Position numbers and translations under genes: made by a program. Source: a virus (Duplodnaviria > Caudoviricetes). From it: a stretch of DNA of 64,000 bases. Below the pieces are notes generated by a model, which searched no databases, was not told where the DNA came from, and was given only the letters and a program-made list of their open reading frames with translations. Positions 60,956-64,000 of this stretch are shown piece by piece. Positions within the stretch are counted from its first letter, which is position 1. Each line of letters begins with the position of its first letter. The stretch lies in IMG/VR virus record IMGVR_UViG_3300021091_000011. One strand, written 5' to 3'.

Positions 60956-61165
60956 AAAGACCGCACCGTGAGCCCCACGGGTGCAGGCAACGAGACTTTC
61001 AATCCTCAAAAGAAGAAGTAAGTAAGTCTCCCCCCCTAGCCCTTAGAAAAGCCCCTCTCGCTCGCGCAAGAGGGGCTTTTTTTATGCCCAAAAAGCGTAT
61101 GATCACGCTATGCCTAGCAACACCGTTAGACTGATTCTCGGCGATAGCCTAGTCAAACTCAAAGA
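60956..61165 (+). repeat. About 210-bp direct repeat, copy 2
   Basis: Matches 59418-59626 and continues into the intact methyltransferase ORF. Confidence 0.95.
61047..61083 (+). terminator. Rho-independent terminator (copy 2)
   Basis: Perfect AAAAGCCCCTCT/AGAGGGGCTTTT stem followed by TTT. Confidence 0.82.
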
Positions 61166-61763
61166 CCTAGCGCCAAACTCAGTAGACGCCGTAGTTTCAG
61201 ACCCACCCTATGAATTAACCGCTAACAAAAAAGGCGGCTCAGGGGTTGCCAGCATCAATCTTGAAAGTCCATACGGACGTTCACGGATCGGAACGGGCAA
61301 CGGCGGCGGCTTTATGGGTATGAAATGGGATTCGACCGGAATCGCCTTTTCACCCGAACTTTGGGGCGAATGCTTTAGGATTCTAAAACCTAACGGCGTT
61401 ATCAAAGCCTTTTCAGGCACGAGAACTTTTCACCGAATGACCCAAGCCCTGAAAAAATCAGGATTCGTAGACTTTGAAATTCACGCTTGGACTTACGGCT
61501 CAGGCTTCCCGAAGTCTATGGACGTGAGCAAGCAGATCGACAAGGCGGCGGGCGCGGAGCGGGAAGTGGTGGGGCGTGTGGCAGGCATGGGTAAGCAAAA
61601 CCCTGAATGGAACGGCACCGCACAAGGACGCGCTGAAAACTCGTTCAAGTCGGAATATGATGCAACCGCACCCGCCACCGATGCCGCTCGGCAATGGTCC
61701 GGGTGGGGCACCGCTCTAAAGCCCGCTTGGGAACCAATCATCGTCGCAAGAAAGCCAATATGA
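61110..61763 (+). CDS. Split beta-class DNA methyltransferase, catalytic module A1 (motif IV only)
   Basis: VVSDPPY, FMGMKWD, FRILKPNG, YGSGFPKS and GWGTALKPAWEPIIVARKP, then stop; no DPFxGxG. Confidence 0.88.
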   Translation: MPSNTVRLILGDSLVKLKDLAPNSVDAVVSDPPYELTANKKGGSGVASINLESPYGRSRIGTGNGGGFMGMKWDSTGIAFSPELWGECFRILKPNGVIKAFSGTRTFHRMTQALKKSGFVDFEIHAWTYGSGFPKSMDVSKQIDKAAGAEREVVGRVAGMGKQNPEWNGTAQGRAENSFKSEYDATAPATDAARQWSGWGTALKPAWEPIIVARKPI

Positions 61764-61846
61764 TCATCCACGTCTTGAGAAAGCCGTTGTCAGACACGGT
61801 CGCTCAAAACGCCTTGGCTCATGGAGCCGGAGCAAGGTGCCATTGA
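61760..61846 (+). pseudogene. Truncated methyltransferase middle module B0
   Basis: MIIHVLRKPLSDTVAQNALAHGAGA matches intact B modules up to 61834, then RCH and stop. Confidence 0.85.
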
Positions 61847-62431
61847 ATTCTAAAGCCGCCCCCATTTCAGGCAGGAAATAGTCTAGTACGGTCCCATAGC
61901 GACCATTTGGCCCCCGTAGATAATACTGATGTACGCAGGGCACACCTAGACGTTGAAGCACATCACCAACTTTCATTTCTAAGCCCGAGACGCGGGGTAT
62001 ACGGCCTTCCGCAATCGCCAAAGAAGTTGTCTGAGATAACTTGGCCTTGGTTTCTTCCGTGTGCTGATAGTTGCCCGCCGCCTTTCGGCGAACATTCATC
62101 TCACGTCGACGTTCGGCCTGCGCTTGTCGGGTAGCCTCTGGAATGATATAGGGCGTTTCTACTTTCCGACCTACCAAGCCCATCGAGCGAGCCTGATAGG
62201 AGCATTTGCGGGAGCATAAAAACGCCGTGGTCTTCGACCGAGCCACCACCGAAGGTGGTCTGGTTACAGGAGTGCCGCAAACTCCACAAGATTTTGCGAT
62301 TGAGAGGGTGTTGCTCTGCCCCACAGGGCGTGAGAGCATTTACGAGAACAAGTCGTCTGCCGCCCATGTAATAAGCGGGTAGGGTCTGCTTGGTATAGGT
62401 CCCCGCAAACGGGGCAAAGTCGTTCAATCAC
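61835..62431 (-). pseudogene. Disrupted homing-endonuclease-like gene (Zn repeats, NUMOD3, Vsr/DUF559-like nuclease)
   Basis: First Zn repeat CPVCG...CSRKCSH is out of frame at a G4 run (62319-62322). Then CGVCG...CSRKCS, HTEETKAKLS and DYFLPE..ALEFNGT, cut off before the expected aromatic-W-H motif. Confidence 0.75.
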
Positions 62432-62480
62432 GAGGTCACCACCTATGACAAATGAGGGAAACGGTCGTAGGGAGGGTCAG

Positions 62481-63283
62481 ATGATTCGCTTGGTTTTAGG
62501 GGACTGCATCGAGAAAATGCAGGATATCCCCCCAGGAACCATTGATGCGATCATCAGCGACCCTCCCTACGGCTGAATATATCAGGACTAGAATTCATGG
62601 GGAAAGAATGGGACGCACCTTGGAAGTCAAACGGATGGCAAGCCGGAGGCGGGTTCTCTAAACCTGGTATTGGCGAACGCCATACCGCATGGCCTAGTTT
62701 CACCGCGACTTCTAAGTTCGGTGCCACAAATCCAACTTGTGAGACTTGTGGGGGACGTGCGCGAGGTAAAAAACGCTGCGGTTGCGCTGAACCACAATGG
62801 AAAGCCATCGGCAAACGCCGCCACGTCGAAAATGAAGGCTTACCGTCTGACGTTACGAGTTCAGGGATGAGTAATCACCTTCGCCACTTTCAAGATTGGT
62901 GCGAACTTTGGTCAAGCCAATGCTTTAGAATCCTAAAACCTAACGGCGTTATCAAAGCCTTTTCGGGGACACGAACTTTTCACCGTATGACCCAAGCCCT
63001 GAAAAAATCAGGATTCGTAGACTTTGAAATTCACGCTTGGACTTACGGATCAGGCTTCCCGAAGTCTATGGACGTGAGCAAGCAGATCGACAAGCAAGCG
63101 GGCGCAGAACGAACGGAAGTCATAAAGCCGTTCAATGACGAAAACGGTTGGAACGCGAACGGAACCACGGGCGACCACGCCTATACCGCACCCGCCACCG
63201 ACGCCGCCCGTCAATGGTCCGGTTACGGCACCGCTCTAAAGCCCGCTTGGGAGCCGATCATCGTCGCAAGAAAGCCAATATGA
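62481..63283 (+). CDS. Split methyltransferase catalytic module A2, frame interrupted right after DPPYG
   Basis: MIRLVLGDC...ISDPPYG-TGA at 62574; GLEFMGKEWD resumes 14 nt later in another frame (ORF 62597-63283) and ends EPIIVARKPI. Confidence 0.75.
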
Positions 63284-63738
63284 TCGTTCACGTCTTACGA
63301 AAGCCATTGTCAGGCACGGTCGCTCAAAACGCTTTGGCTCATGGAGCCGGAGCATTGAACATCGACGGATGCCGGATTGCTGTTTCTAGCGAAGAAAGAA
63401 AAACCTACGACGCCAATATGCGTGCGCTTGAACGGTACGCAGACGGCAGAGAAAAAATCGGGCAGTTTGAGGGTGGCTGGAAAGCAGACCCGTCCCGTGT
63501 CAAAAACGTGGGCGCTCGCTGGCCCGCTAATCTCGTCCATGATGGAAGCGAGCACGCCCTAGATAATTTTCCCGAGGCGGGAAATGGATGGAAGAAAAAT
63601 TACGGTGATGAAGTCTATGCCGTTGAAGGCCGTCATTATTCCGGAGGTTCTTTTGGCGGTGGTGGTTTTCTAGGGGGTAGCACTTATACGGACTCAGGCT
63701 CGGCATCTCGATTCTTTCAACAAGTGATAATCAAATGA
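63280..63738 (+). CDS. Split methyltransferase variable middle module B1
   Basis: MIVHVLRKPLSGTVAQNALAHGAGALNIDGCRI...RWPANLVHDGS...DSGSASRFF, then stop; ATGA overlap with A2. Confidence 0.85.
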   Translation: MIVHVLRKPLSGTVAQNALAHGAGALNIDGCRIAVSSEERKTYDANMRALERYADGREKIGQFEGGWKADPSRVKNVGARWPANLVHDGSEHALDNFPEAGNGWKKNYGDEVYAVEGRHYSGGSFGGGGFLGGSTYTDSGSASRFFQQVIIK

Positions 63739-64000
63739 TCGTTCACGTCCTGAGAAAGCCATTGTCAGGCACCGTCGCTCAAAACGCCCTGCAACACGGC
63801 TGCGGGGCATTGAACATCGACGGATGCAGGGTTAGTTTGTCTTCCGATGAAAATCCAGACAAGTTGAGCGCGAGAAGCGGTGGGAACCGTGGTTTTGCTG
63901 AAGATTATGTAGGCGGGGTAACACGAAATTTACCTGCTGGTTGGGATTGCAGCAAGGGGCGTTGGCCCGCGAATCTCGTCCATGATGGAAGCGACGAAGT
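63735..64000 (+). CDS. Split methyltransferase variable middle module B2, partial
   Basis: My translation: MIVHVLRKPLSGTVAQNALQHGCGALNIDGCRV...GRWPANLVHDGSDE; runs off the right edge. Confidence 0.85.
   Translation, partial: MIVHVLRKPLSGTVAQNALQHGCGALNIDGCRVSLSSDENPDKLSARSGGNRGFAEDYVGGVTRNLPAGWDCSKGRWPANLVHDGSDE

What the first reader, a model, noticed from the sequence alone, without database searches (positions are those of the whole stretch)
61110..64000. A DNA methyltransferase split into interchangeable gene modules (catalytic A, variable B)
Seen: two paralogous A genes (61110, 62481/62597) end identically at EPIIVARKPI-stop. Each overlaps the ATG of a separate B gene through the same sequence, GCAAGAAAGCCAATATGATC. 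Three B starts exist (61760 truncated, 63280 intact, 63735 partial), with conserved flanks (LRKPLSxTVAQNAL.HG.GALNIDGCR; RWPANLVHDGS; SASRFF) and different interiors. Known: in this beta-class family these segments are normally one chain (DPPY...EPIxxARKP...NIDGCR...RWPAN...ARFFY...HPTVKP...DPFxGSG), and the region between motifs IV and I carries target recognition. Each B restarts with a copy of the strand A ends on (IVARKP vs VHVLRKP), suggesting docking by strand complementation. Inference: a combinatorial multi-subunit methyltransferase whose specificity modules assemble in trans. The identical split in two paralogs argues against sequencing error.
Basis: partly seen in the sequence, partly recalled or inferred. 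Interest (0 to 1): 0.85.

Follow-up and report, generated by a model that had tools for sequence, protein, structure and literature searches.

The report
Split phage DNA methylase module array
A giant lake-water phage carries a row of small separate genes that are pieces of one DNA methyltransferase; the same cut-up design, built around one cofactor-binding hub gene, recurs in many uncultivated phages and may let one enzyme mark several DNA sequences, which is untested.

Summary
Window 61110-64000 holds two DPPY "A" genes that both end EPIIVARKPI-stop. Each overlaps (ATGA) a "B" gene that starts MI[IV]HVLRKPL. B1 is truncated, B2 is intact, and B3 is complete (142 aa) just past the window.

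This is not decay or sequencing error. A and B are under purifying selection (dN/dS 0.14-0.26 against relatives). Stand-alone A, B and C proteins form large families. I found 42 loci with split arrays: always one C "hub", 0-5 A and 0-7 B.

- No C lies to the right of the window. A hub-like gene sits about 67 kb before the window's start in the same genome.
- The hub is a degenerate MTase half, without DPPY and without the last strand, joined to the SAM-binding half.
- Modelling puts B's N-terminal strand into the hub, not into A (ipSAE 0.90, best control 0.43).
- A2 is itself split after DPPYG, and that split recurs in four other loci.
- B modules are mosaics of two independently reassorting variable blocks.
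- B1 was cut by a homing-endonuclease-like gene.

Enzyme activity, target specificity and the A-hub contact are untested. This scan has noted the same kind of system before on other DNA. I found no description of it in the literature.

The parts
59418..59626 (+). Upstream copy of a ~210-nt direct repeat. It holds an ORF tail, a hairpin with a T-run, and a relic of the first 18 codons of an A gene (59572-59626). With its partner it flanks the unrelated 371-aa ORF 59683-60798.
60956..61109 (+). Second copy of the repeat, with a GC-rich hairpin (61051-61076) and T-run just upstream of A1.
   Evidence: read from the sequence. The terminator scan did not list it because the loop is 10 nt.
61110..61763 (+). 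A1: catalytic-half module (217 aa). It has the GD strand, DPPY, motifs V-VIII and its own last strand EPIIVARKP, but no SAM motif I.
   Evidence: PF01555 positions 1-90, 25.3 bits; dN/dS 0.14-0.20 against L004/L085; phrog_6025
61760..61846 (+). B1 fragment: 28 codons. Homology to B2/B3 ends near 61834.
61764..62339 (-). Homing-endonuclease-like ORF: Zn ribbon, NUMOD3 and a DUF559/Vsr-like part. Its last 24 codons are antisense B1. A second Zn-ribbon fragment lies in another frame at 62264-62431. The gene is probably decaying.
   Evidence: NUMOD3, weak; weak HNH/homing endonuclease PHROGs; Atlas features 0.93 to viral NUMOD3+DUF559 clusters; a lead only
62445..62576 (+). A2n: 43-aa N-terminal piece of the second A module, ending DPPYG-stop.
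62577..62596 (+). 20-nt spacer after the TGA stop (23 nt from the stop's first base to the next ATG). It contains AGGA 9 nt before the ATG of A2c and shifts the frame.
62597..63283 (+). A2c: the rest of the second A module (228 aa). It starts at the conserved Met of FMGKxWD and has a CxxC..CxC insert. Its C-terminal half is 91-93% identical in DNA to A1.
63280..63738 (+). B2: intact middle module (152 aa). Layout: N-terminal strand, constant block, variable block V1, RWPANLVHDGS, variable block V2, SASRFF.
63735..64000 (+). B3: middle module, cut by the window's end (142 aa in L001 10456-10884).

Best explanation
Window 61.1-64.2 kb is an accessory array of a multi-subunit beta-class DNA amino-methyltransferase. 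The enzyme is encoded as separate proteins.

The parts:
- A modules carry motifs III-VIII with the catalytic DPPY. There are two here, and one is further cut after DPPYG.
- B modules fill the segment between motif VIII and motif X, which is the target-recognition position. There are two intact copies and one relic.
- A single hub protein C is encoded elsewhere in the genome.

The hub is a degenerate A-like half, without DPPY and without the last beta-strand, joined to the SAM-binding half (motifs X, I, II).

Proposed mechanism:
- B inserts its N-terminal strand (IVHVLRK) between two strands of the hub's degenerate half. This step rests on a model, on natural B-C fusions, and on the fact that the hub lacks exactly that strand.
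- A supplies DPPY to the hub's SAM-binding half. This step is inferred from what catalysis requires and was not tested.
- Different A and B modules each carry hypervariable blocks between constant frames. They would give the one hub several target specificities and so protect phage DNA from several restriction systems. This step is inferred.

The constant frames also act as recombination substrates that shuffle blocks and modules. Reassortment and gene-conversion patches are shown.
For: 1. The split is conserved, not accidental.
- The same stop after ARKP occurs in L004 (76% identical), L010 (56%) and L018-22 (50%).
- All 42 loci that carry a hub have exactly one hub, with 0-5 A and 0-7 B. L004, for example, reads Bx6-C-A-A-B.
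- Of the 150 best cluster representatives for B2, 27 are stand-alone B. 81 of 120 A1 homologues are stand-alone A. 100 of 120 hub homologues are stand-alone hubs.

2. Purifying selection.
- A1 against L004/L085 A gives dN/dS 0.14-0.20 at dS about 0.85-1.0. B gives 0.16-0.26.
- Between the two strains, the isolated SNPs in A1 and A2c are all synonymous (6 of 6).
- Random breaks in relatives (L213, L047) look different: they fall mid-motif, with no start codon and no duplicated strand.

3. Complementary content.
- A matches PF01555 positions 1-90 and the hub matches positions 159-219.
- The consensus of 94 hubs keeps motif I and HPTVKP invariant but has no DPPY and no EPxxVxRKP strand.

4. Docking of B on the hub.
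- The job used the L085 hub, window A1 and window B2, with B2 scored. ipSAE was 0.90 against a best control of 0.43. That mark was reached by 51 of 78 solved complexes and 2 of 108 mismatched pairs.
- The three runs agree in at least 75% of contacts. The partner's pLDDT was at least 61.
- B residues 3-8 lie between hub residues 63-73 and 93-100.
- 20 of 120 hub homologues are natural B-C fusions, including P0156 in a close relative.
- AF2 of the hub alone gives pTM 0.57 with the 92-106 strand unformed. AF2 of the P0156 B-C fusion gives pTM 0.73 with that strand formed.

5. Variable cassettes.
- B3's V1 is 84% identical to L004_7217 V1, while their V2 blocks are 30% identical. B3's V2 is 97% identical to L004_6373 V2, while their V1 blocks are 33% identical. 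B2's V2 is 86% identical to L004_5909 V2, with V1 at 15%.
- A paralogues share a near-identical core and differ in one block.

6. A hub exists in this genome.
- 33 of 180 short words of the L085 hub match a 771-nt stretch 67,295 nt before the window's start.
- Further A and B paralogues (P0292, P0433, P0451) share the 204,357-bp contig with A1, B2 and B3. They also appear in the same three runs at similar depth.
Against: - No activity, binding or methylation data exist for any member.
- This array has no hub within 61 kb upstream or 2.7 kb downstream. It also shows damage: B1 is truncated, an endonuclease-like gene is inserted, and there is a relic A 5' end.
- The complex model was folded without alignments. 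It used a hub from another phage, a stand-in whose own A is about 80% identical to A1 (166 of 204 residues). Halves of a split fold tend to pass by likeness to solved single-chain MTases, so the pass may only reflect the fold.
- With the hub replaced, B still scored 0.43. Some affinity of B for A is therefore not excluded.
- The topology is unresolved. In a canonical fold the hub's own degenerate strand occupies the place that A's DPPY strand needs.
- AF2 models of the hub and of the B-C fusion do not superpose globally on solved beta-class MTases (TM 0.2-0.35, rmsd about 20 A).
- Pfam scores of A1 (25.3 bits) and A2c (24.9 bits) are just under the 26.7 cut-off.
- That B or A determines the target sequence is inferred only from position and variability.
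Confidence: 0.6

Rival explanations
1. The system is a functional split methyltransferase, but the modules work in fixed partnerships. Each A works with a cognate B, or the extra copies are simply alternative isoforms. There is no combinatorial mixing, and extra modules add specificities one by one at most.
For: Some arrays read as A-B pairs, for example L103 (A B A B-C) and L018 (A-B-C). A and B genes are translationally coupled by ATGA overlaps here, which favours local pairing.
Against: A and B numbers vary independently: L098 has 4-5 A with one B-C, L121 has one A with six B, and L004 has two A with seven B. In this window A1's own B is destroyed while A1 stays under constraint.
Confidence: 0.2
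2. This particular array is a dying remnant. It consists of duplicated fragments left by recombination and homing-endonuclease traffic, and only the hub locus about 128 kb away is functional.
For: B1 is truncated, an endonuclease-like ORF is fused to antisense B1, an A 5' relic lies at 59572-59626, and no hub is nearby. A2 is interrupted after DPPYG.
Against: A1, A2c, B2 and B3 are intact ORFs in both contigs (L001 and L002) and are covered without frame changes by contigs of three runs. dN/dS is 0.14-0.26 against relatives at dS near 1. The DPPYG split is itself conserved in four other diverged loci, each restarting at the same Met. Isolated strain SNPs in A1 and A2c are synonymous.
Confidence: 0.13
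3. The free A and B proteins are not enzyme subunits. They would be regulators or decoys, for example competitors that occupy the hub's socket and tune or switch methylation, or DNA-binding proteins on their own.
For: B is predicted to plug into the hub, so several B proteins must compete for one socket. A lacks any SAM motif.
Against: DPPY and the whole catalytic half are conserved in A. The module content adds up exactly to one canonical enzyme. Fused A-B-B-c and B-B-B-C proteins exist, which fits multi-module enzymes better than inhibitors.
Confidence: 0.05
4. Programmed recoding (a -1 frameshift at the ATGA overlaps, or read-through after DPPYG) makes a fused A-B chain, so the split is only apparent.
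For: B lies in the -1 frame of A. In L134 the DPPYG break is a single in-frame TAG.
Against: There is no slippery heptamer at CCAATATGATC. A fusion would carry the strand twice. L086 has two stops in the bridging frame, and the spacers differ in length and frame. Every downstream piece starts at an ATG. Stand-alone families are large.
Confidence: 0.02

Closest known systems
Single-chain phage beta-class N6A/N4C DNA methyltransferases (Pfam PF01555; phrog_67; the 'DNA methylase' of many mycobacteriophages; solved relatives CcrM, M.RsrI, M.MboIIA, M.BceJIV)
   Same: Same motifs in the same order: GD strand, DPPY, EPIxxARKP, NIDGCR, RWPAN, ARFF, HPTVKP, DPFxGSGTT. A, B and the hub's C-terminal half together add up to one such chain.
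   Different: Here the chain is cut into 3-4 proteins with duplicated boundary elements. The A and B pieces are present in several diverged copies. The SAM-binding piece carries an extra degenerate catalytic half. The B segment has no solved homologue by sequence.
Type I restriction-modification methyltransferases (HsdM plus HsdS with two TRDs)
   Same: The recognition part is a separate, translationally coupled protein. Two variable blocks are separated by conserved regions and reassort by recombination (PMC3510504 and PMC3077401 for EcoKI coupling and TRD movement).
   Different: There is no sequence relation. Type I MTases are gamma-class, with a complete catalytic subunit. Here the Rossmann fold itself is divided, the catalytic half is also a variable module, and no restriction subunit is present.
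Multispecific C5-cytosine methyltransferases of Bacillus phages (SPR, phi3T, rho11s)
   Same: Phage enzymes carry several target-recognising modules side by side so that one enzyme covers several restriction sites (references 86-87 of PMC7544214). Fused A-B-B-c and B-B-B-C relatives are the closest parallel.
   Different: Those are single chains of the C5 class. Here the enzyme is an amino-MTase and the modules are separate genes.
Natural two-polypeptide methyltransferases M.AquI and M.EcoHK31I
   Same: A methyltransferase fold assembled from two gene products (PMC3404938, PMC2836561).
   Different: C5 class, two fixed pieces, no module arrays, no degenerate half.
Active/degenerate beta-class pairs: METTL3-METTL14, ciliate MTA1-MTA9, and the division of labour in the EcoP15I Mod dimer and the CcrM dimer
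   Same: One unit has an eroded motif IV and serves binding or recognition, while the other catalyses (PMC7544214). The hub's degenerate half plus B may be the 'reader'.
   Different: In those pairs each partner is a complete fold. Here the degenerate unit is the one that keeps SAM motif I, and the DPPY unit has none.
Genes in pieces in T4-like phages (Aeh1 nrdA split by mobE, T4 gene 39/60 split by mobA, gene 43A/43B with an intercistronic spacer)
   Same: Essential phage enzymes are split at conserved sites, often next to free-standing homing endonucleases, and remain functional (PMC2988022). Here there is an endonuclease-like gene in B1, an intein in the hub of L004/L010, and a short spacer after DPPYG.
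   Different: Those are single splits of single-copy genes. Here the pieces have multiplied into variable arrays.

Membership tests
Beta-class DNA amino-methyltransferase (PF01555 N6_N4_Mtase) | Catalytic motif IV (D/S)PP(Y/F) | tested here: met
   DPPY is present in A1 and in A2n. It is conserved in relatives.
Beta-class DNA amino-methyltransferase (PF01555 N6_N4_Mtase) | SAM-binding motif I (FxGxG) and motif X in the same enzyme | tested here: not met
   No ORF of 61110-64163 has it. It is found only on the separate hub protein of relatives and in a hub-like stretch elsewhere in this genome.
Beta-class DNA amino-methyltransferase (PF01555 N6_N4_Mtase) | Pfam gathering score | tested here: inconclusive
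   A1 scores 25.3 bits and A2c 24.9 bits against a cut-off of 26.7, each covering only profile positions 1-90. Paralogue P0292 scores 27.6 bits and the hub 59.9 bits.
Beta-class DNA amino-methyltransferase (PF01555 N6_N4_Mtase) | Motif order IV-VIII, TRD, X, I-II along one chain | tested here: not met
   The order is kept only across separate proteins. Fused relatives show it in one chain.
Beta-class DNA amino-methyltransferase (PF01555 N6_N4_Mtase) | Methyl transfer to DNA adenine N6 or cytosine N4 | not testable with these tools
   No biochemical data exist.
Split hub-and-module methyltransferase arrays (informal class defined by this analysis) | A ends right after the motif VIII strand, and B starts with its own copy of that strand and ends at ARFF | tested here: met
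Split hub-and-module methyltransferase arrays (informal class defined by this analysis) | One hub gene (degenerate half plus motifs X/I/II) in the same locus | tested here: not met
   There is none in the window or in the 2.7 kb beyond it. A hub-like stretch lies 67 kb before the window's start. Its DNA could not be fetched.
Type I R-M specificity subunit (HsdS) | Homology to Methylase_S / HsdS TRD fold | tested here: not met
   B has no Pfam hit. Its only PHROG hit is phrog_3008, annotated as DNA methyltransferase. The resemblance is one of organisation only.
Free-standing homing endonuclease (NUMOD3 + DUF559/Vsr-like) | Nuclease domain with an intact catalytic core | tested here: inconclusive
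   NUMOD3 scores 16.2 bits, below its cut-off. HNH/homing PHROG hits are weak. Atlas features score 0.93. The C-terminus is replaced by antisense B1.

The most novel reading that the evidence does not exclude
This is a plug-in methyltransferase. One SAM-binding hub has two sockets. Its degenerate N-half accepts interchangeable 'reader' cartridges (B) by beta-strand insertion, and its C-half is completed by interchangeable 'writer' cartridges (A, itself sometimes in two pieces). Each cartridge is built from reassorting hypervariable blocks. A phage could then generate many methylation specificities from a handful of small genes scattered over its genome. The hub's conserved acidic-hydrophobic tail may tether it to another machine such as the replisome.
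Probability: 0.3. Interest if true: 0.9.

Novelty: new variant of a known kind. Interest (0 to 1): 0.72.

Why it matters
DNA methyltransferases are textbook single-chain or simple two-subunit enzymes. A natural design in which the Rossmann fold is divided among 3-4 proteins, with exchangeable catalytic and recognition cartridges on one cofactor-binding hub, would be a new solution to multi-specificity.

- It would help explain how large phages evade many restriction systems at small genetic cost.
- It would offer a natural scaffold for programmable methylation.
- It makes the determinants of target recognition in beta-class enzymes testable, because nature has already delimited the variable blocks (V1 and V2 in B, one block in A).
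- It gives a clean case of how mobile-element traffic and recombination between constant frames turn one gene into a module library.

The family is abundant in metagenomes. I found no cultured phage that carries the hub.

Tried and rejected
- Megablast of the region against GenBank phages gave no match.
- An exact 43-mer from the window's end was not found in IMG/VR.
- No whole genome is held for this window, so the hub locus could not be read.
- Look-ups of P0292, P0433 and P0451, paralogues on the same 204-kb contig, were 'not on record'.
- P0014, P0015 and P0154 led to other phages. P0156's record gave a gene map but no DNA.
- The first metagenome scan with the L085 hub found nothing. The second, with an alignment, found 80 loci but not this genome's hub.
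- tblastn of the hub against cultured phages gave no record covering 80% or more of it.
- Sigma-70 promoter and terminator scans gave no more than shuffles do.
- Frameshift or read-through fusion was considered and rejected: no slippery site, and the spacers vary.
- Foldseek of the hub and B-C models finds beta-class MTases colinearly at E about 1e-5, but TM is 0.2-0.35. No conclusion on the relative placement of the halves can be drawn.
- No RNA holder is listed for this stretch.
- Logan contigs break at the repeats, so no single piece spans the array.
- Literature searches for split, multi-subunit or modular phage amino-methyltransferases found only engineered split C5 enzymes, M.AquI/M.EcoHK31I, Type I/IIB systems and general jumbo-phage surveys.
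- The A-hub contact could not be scored, because the single complex job scored B only.
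Full report
WHAT IS IN THE WINDOW

- A1 (61110-61763, 217 aa) has DPPY and ends EPIIVARKPI-TGA.
- Its stop overlaps (ATGA) the start of B1 (61760), which runs for only 28 codons.
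- A2 ends identically at 63283 and overlaps B2 (63280-63738, 152 aa) through the same 20-mer.
- B2's stop overlaps B3 (63735 onward).

A JGI contig that matches the window at 99.5% (L001) extends 2.7 kb further. On it B3 is complete: 142 aa, ending SRFFQQVTLK-stop. After B3 come non-coding DNA and unrelated genes. There is no C module and no further B there.

Repeat analysis gives three B starts (118 nt, 67-81% identical) and two long A1/A2 repeats (196 nt at 93% and 170 nt at 91%). A second strain (L002, 99.5% identical) keeps all ORFs. Contigs of three lake-water runs bridge 61805-62962 without gaps. Sequencing error is excluded.

1. B1's homology to B2 and B3 stops at about 61834. There it abuts a minus-strand ORF (61764-62339) whose last 24 codons are antisense B1.
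- That ORF has Zn ribbons, a weak NUMOD3 hit and weak HNH/homing-endonuclease PHROG hits.
- Its nearest Atlas clusters are viral NUMOD3+DUF559 proteins of about 195 aa (a lead only).
- I read it as a free-standing homing-endonuclease-like gene that cut B1 and is itself decaying.

2. A2 is in two pieces. A 43-aa ORF ends DPPYG-TGA (62445-62576). After a 20-nt spacer, a 228-aa ORF starts at 62597, at the Met of the conserved FMGKxWD.
- The same cut right after DPPYG occurs in four other, diverged loci: L086, L093, L110 and L134.
- Their spacers, counted from the stop codon to the next ATG, range from 17 to 32 nt, and the frames vary. In each case the downstream piece restarts at that same Met.
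- L110's two pieces align with the window's. This is a recurrent architecture, not a lesion.

3. A ~210-nt direct repeat (59418-59626 and 60956-61165) flanks an unrelated 371-aa ORF. Its upstream copy holds a relic of the first 18 codons of an A gene. The region is a recombination hot spot.

RELATIVES

Of 80 IMG/VR relatives of A1, most are fused A-B-C genes of 400-480 aa that read EPIxxARKPLxGTVAxNV... straight through. The stop after ARKP recurs in L004 (76% identical), L010 (56%) and L018-22 (50%; phage contigs up to 205 kb).

I built HMMs for A, B and C and mapped all fetched loci.
- 153 of 232 loci carry only a fused gene.
- 42 loci carry a hub-type C, and every one of them has exactly one.
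- Those 42 loci carry 0-5 stand-alone A and 0-7 B.
- Examples: L004 is Bx6-C-A-A-B, L085 and L010 are B-C-A, L018 is A-B-C, L098 is Ax4-5 plus B-C, and L121 is A plus B-C plus Bx5.

The close relatives L004, L010 and L085 share synteny but differ in module number, so turnover is fast.

Database-wide:
- 27 of the 150 best 50%-cluster representatives for B2 are stand-alone B proteins of 135-162 aa. Others are fused A-B-B-c, B-B-C or B-B-B-C.
- 81 of 120 A1 homologues are stand-alone A.
- 100 of 120 hub homologues are stand-alone hubs and 20 are B-C fusions.
- PHROGs holds an A-like family (phrog_6025, 192 aa) and a B-c-like family (phrog_3008). Both are annotated only as DNA methyltransferase.
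- tblastn of the hub found no cultured phage with a full hub.

SELECTION

- A1 against the A genes of L004 and L085 gives dN/dS 0.14-0.20 at dS 0.85-1.0.
- B2 and B3 against relatives give 0.16-0.26, with dS near saturation.
- Between the two strains, the isolated SNPs in A1 and A2c are all synonymous (6 of 6).
- The non-synonymous differences sit in two short patches: A1 61449-61460 and B3 63789-63806. In the B3 patch, the other strain's B3 reads like B1/B2, so gene conversion among paralogues is the likely cause there.
- By contrast, accidental breaks in relatives (L213, L047) fall inside motifs, with no start codon and no duplicated strand.

The stand-alone genes are therefore functional genes.

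THE HUB

The C protein of split systems (L085, 238 aa) is not just HPTVKP..DPFLGSGTT. Its first ~105 residues are a degenerate copy of the A half.
- The DPPY position reads TRGV, and the LKPGGHLL and GFEVRDAI strands are kept.
- Next comes FSYTAKA..SEREAG, the sequence that follows ARFF in fused enzymes. The SAM-binding half follows.
- In 94 hubs, motif I, HPTVKP and the SEREAG block are invariant or nearly so. There is no DPPY and no EPxxVxRKP strand.
- Pfam sees PF01555 positions 1-90 in A and positions 159-219 in the hub.
- In L004 and L010 the hub gene also carries a LAGLIDADG intein between HP and TVKP.

So B (strand, TRD-position segment, ARFF) is exactly what the hub lacks, while A keeps its own strand.

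DOES THIS GENOME HAVE A HUB?

- The window has none. The C model hits only the C-terminal halves of two complete MTases at 32.4-34.5 kb.
- An index look-up by sequence finds 33 of 180 short words of the L085 hub in a 771-nt stretch of the same genome, 67,295 nt before the window's start.
- Earlier notes place a B-B-C-A-B locus there.
- Independent partial support: a third A (P0292, also ending EPIIVARKPI) and two more B proteins (P0433, P0451) share a longest contig of 204,357 bp with A1, B2 and B3. P0433's N-terminus equals the B1 relic.
- The distinctive parts of those paralogues appear as joints and loose ends in the same three runs, at similar depth.
- I could not fetch that DNA.

The refutation criterion 'no C anywhere in the genome' is thus not met. 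The array in the window is a hub-less satellite, about 128 kb from the hub.

HOW THE PIECES MAY FIT

One complex job used the L085 hub, window A1 and window B2, with B2 scored.
- ipSAE was 0.90 in all three runs, against a best control of 0.43 (hub replaced) and 0.00 (B replaced).
- The mark was reached by 51 of 78 solved complexes and 2 of 108 mismatched pairs.
- The runs agree in at least 75% of contacts, and the partner's pLDDT was at least 61.
- The most certain contacts put B residues 3-8 between hub residues 63-73 and 93-100. This is the place of the last strand between strands 5 and 6 of the degenerate half.
- B's RWPANL and SRFF segments also touch A residues 196-207 and 124-146.

Caveats on that job:
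- It was folded without alignments.
- The hub is a stand-in from another phage.
- Pieces of a known fold can pass from memory of single-chain MTases.
- The 0.43 control leaves some B-A contact possible.

Independent hints:
- Natural B-C fusions exist.
- AF2 of the hub alone gives pTM 0.57 with residues 92-106 unstructured. AF2 of the natural B-C fusion P0156 gives pTM 0.73 with that segment as a strand.

Both models match solved beta-class MTases colinearly (E about 1e-5). They do not superpose globally (TM 0.2-0.35, rmsd about 20 A), so the relative placement of the hub's two halves is open.

From established knowledge of class I MTases, DPPY follows strand 4 and must face the cofactor held by strands 1-2. 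A must therefore pair with the hub's C-half. I propose a two-socket hub: the N-half plus B acts as reader, and the C-half plus A acts as writer. This is reminiscent of the division of labour in beta-class dimers and of METTL3-14 and MTA1-MTA9 (PMC7544214). This step is inference and was not tested.

VARIABLE CASSETTES

B has five blocks: constant N, V1, constant RWPANLVHDGS, V2 and constant SASRFF. B2 and B3 are 94%, 19%, 67%, 21% and 85% identical across them. The variable blocks reassort:
- B3's V1 is 84% identical to L004_7217 V1, while their V2 blocks are 30% identical.
- B3's V2 is 97% identical to L004_6373 V2, while their V1 blocks are 33% identical.
- B2's V2 is 86% identical to L004_5909 V2, with V1 at 15%. 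It is also 74% identical to the V2 of P0001, whose constant frame is only 50% identical.
- B2's V1 is 58% identical to P0002 V1.

A paralogues share an almost invariant core. They differ in one block between AGAERE and TAPATDAA, and in an insert after DPPY.

B sits between motif VIII and motif X, which is where beta-class enzymes carry the TRD. That placement is the only basis for calling B a specificity module.

COMPARISON AND NOVELTY

The parts belong to the PF01555 family, but no single protein here meets its definition. The organisation recalls several known systems: Type I HsdM/HsdS, multispecific phage C5 MTases, M.AquI, and phage genes in pieces (PMC2988022). It differs from each. The fold itself is divided, both halves exist as variable modules, and the SAM-binding piece keeps a degenerate catalytic half.

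I found no description in the searchable literature. This scan has reported the same kind of system on other genomes. What this window adds:
- a hub-less satellite array,
- the recurrent DPPYG split,
- quantified V1/V2 reassortment,
- gene-conversion patches between strains,
- the hub-specific C-terminal tail.

VERDICT

My best reading, a functional multi-subunit methyltransferase whose modules act in trans on a distant hub, has confidence about 0.6. The combinatorial-specificity claim is lower, at about 0.3.

Noticed in passing
window 32451-35556 (minus strand): Three complete DNA methyltransferase genes lie in a row: two tandem PF01555 paralogues (340 and 357 aa, SPPY motif) with near-identical ends and a different middle, and a D12-class gene. 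All three end with the same tail, ESVFDLFGDS.
   Followed up: partly
hub proteins of alignment A2; L085 3400-3463: Hub proteins end in a conserved acidic-hydrophobic tail, [ST]L[DE]D[LF]FG[LF]. It occurs in 70 of 94 hubs and 31 of 45 hubs in loci, against 3 of 140 fused MTases, 0 of 59 A, 1 of 64 B and 1.5% of all ORFs. From memory it resembles clamp-binding or SSB-tail peptides. The partner is unknown.
   Followed up: partly
L004 8166-10001; L010 1693-3528: The hub gene carries a LAGLIDADG intein inserted between HP and TVKP of the conserved motif. L085 has the intein-less allele.
   Followed up: partly
window 59418-59626 and 60956-61165: A ~210-nt direct repeat (91-100% identical) flanks the unrelated 371-aa ORF 59683-60798. 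The upstream copy keeps the first 18 codons of an A gene as a relic.
   Followed up: yes
window 62574-62596; L086 2750, L093 5945, L110 5982, L134 6208: The catalytic module is cut right after DPPYG in five diverged loci, each restarting at the Met of FMGKxWD. In L134 the break is a single in-frame TAG.
   Followed up: yes
window 61449-61460 and 63789-63806 versus L002: Strain differences cluster in two short patches. In the B3 patch the other strain reads like paralogue B1/B2, which looks like gene conversion between module copies.
   Followed up: partly
P0009, P0063, P0057, P0004: Natural single chains exist with several B modules: B-B-B-C, B-B-C and A-B-B-c. Each B has its own copy of the strand. 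What the surplus strands do in a chain with one slot is unexplained.
   Followed up: no
window 58398-58458 and 59104-59164: Two neighbouring ORFs start with the same ~20-residue leader, MNKISSQDRSALIKLA (the 61-nt repeat is 90% identical). Another note of this scan treats it as a portable leader.
   Followed up: no
NCBI GCA_041443045.1 contig, genes 7256-10056: In a relative of L085, a B-C fusion (P0156) and an A gene are followed directly by a Tet_JBP-family dioxygenase gene and a thymidine kinase gene. This may be a DNA-modification neighbourhood.
   Followed up: no
L213 5890-7342; L047 5967-7834: Fused relatives with plain frameshifts inside motifs. They are likely pseudogenes or sequencing errors and serve as a contrast to the regular splits.
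   Followed up: partly
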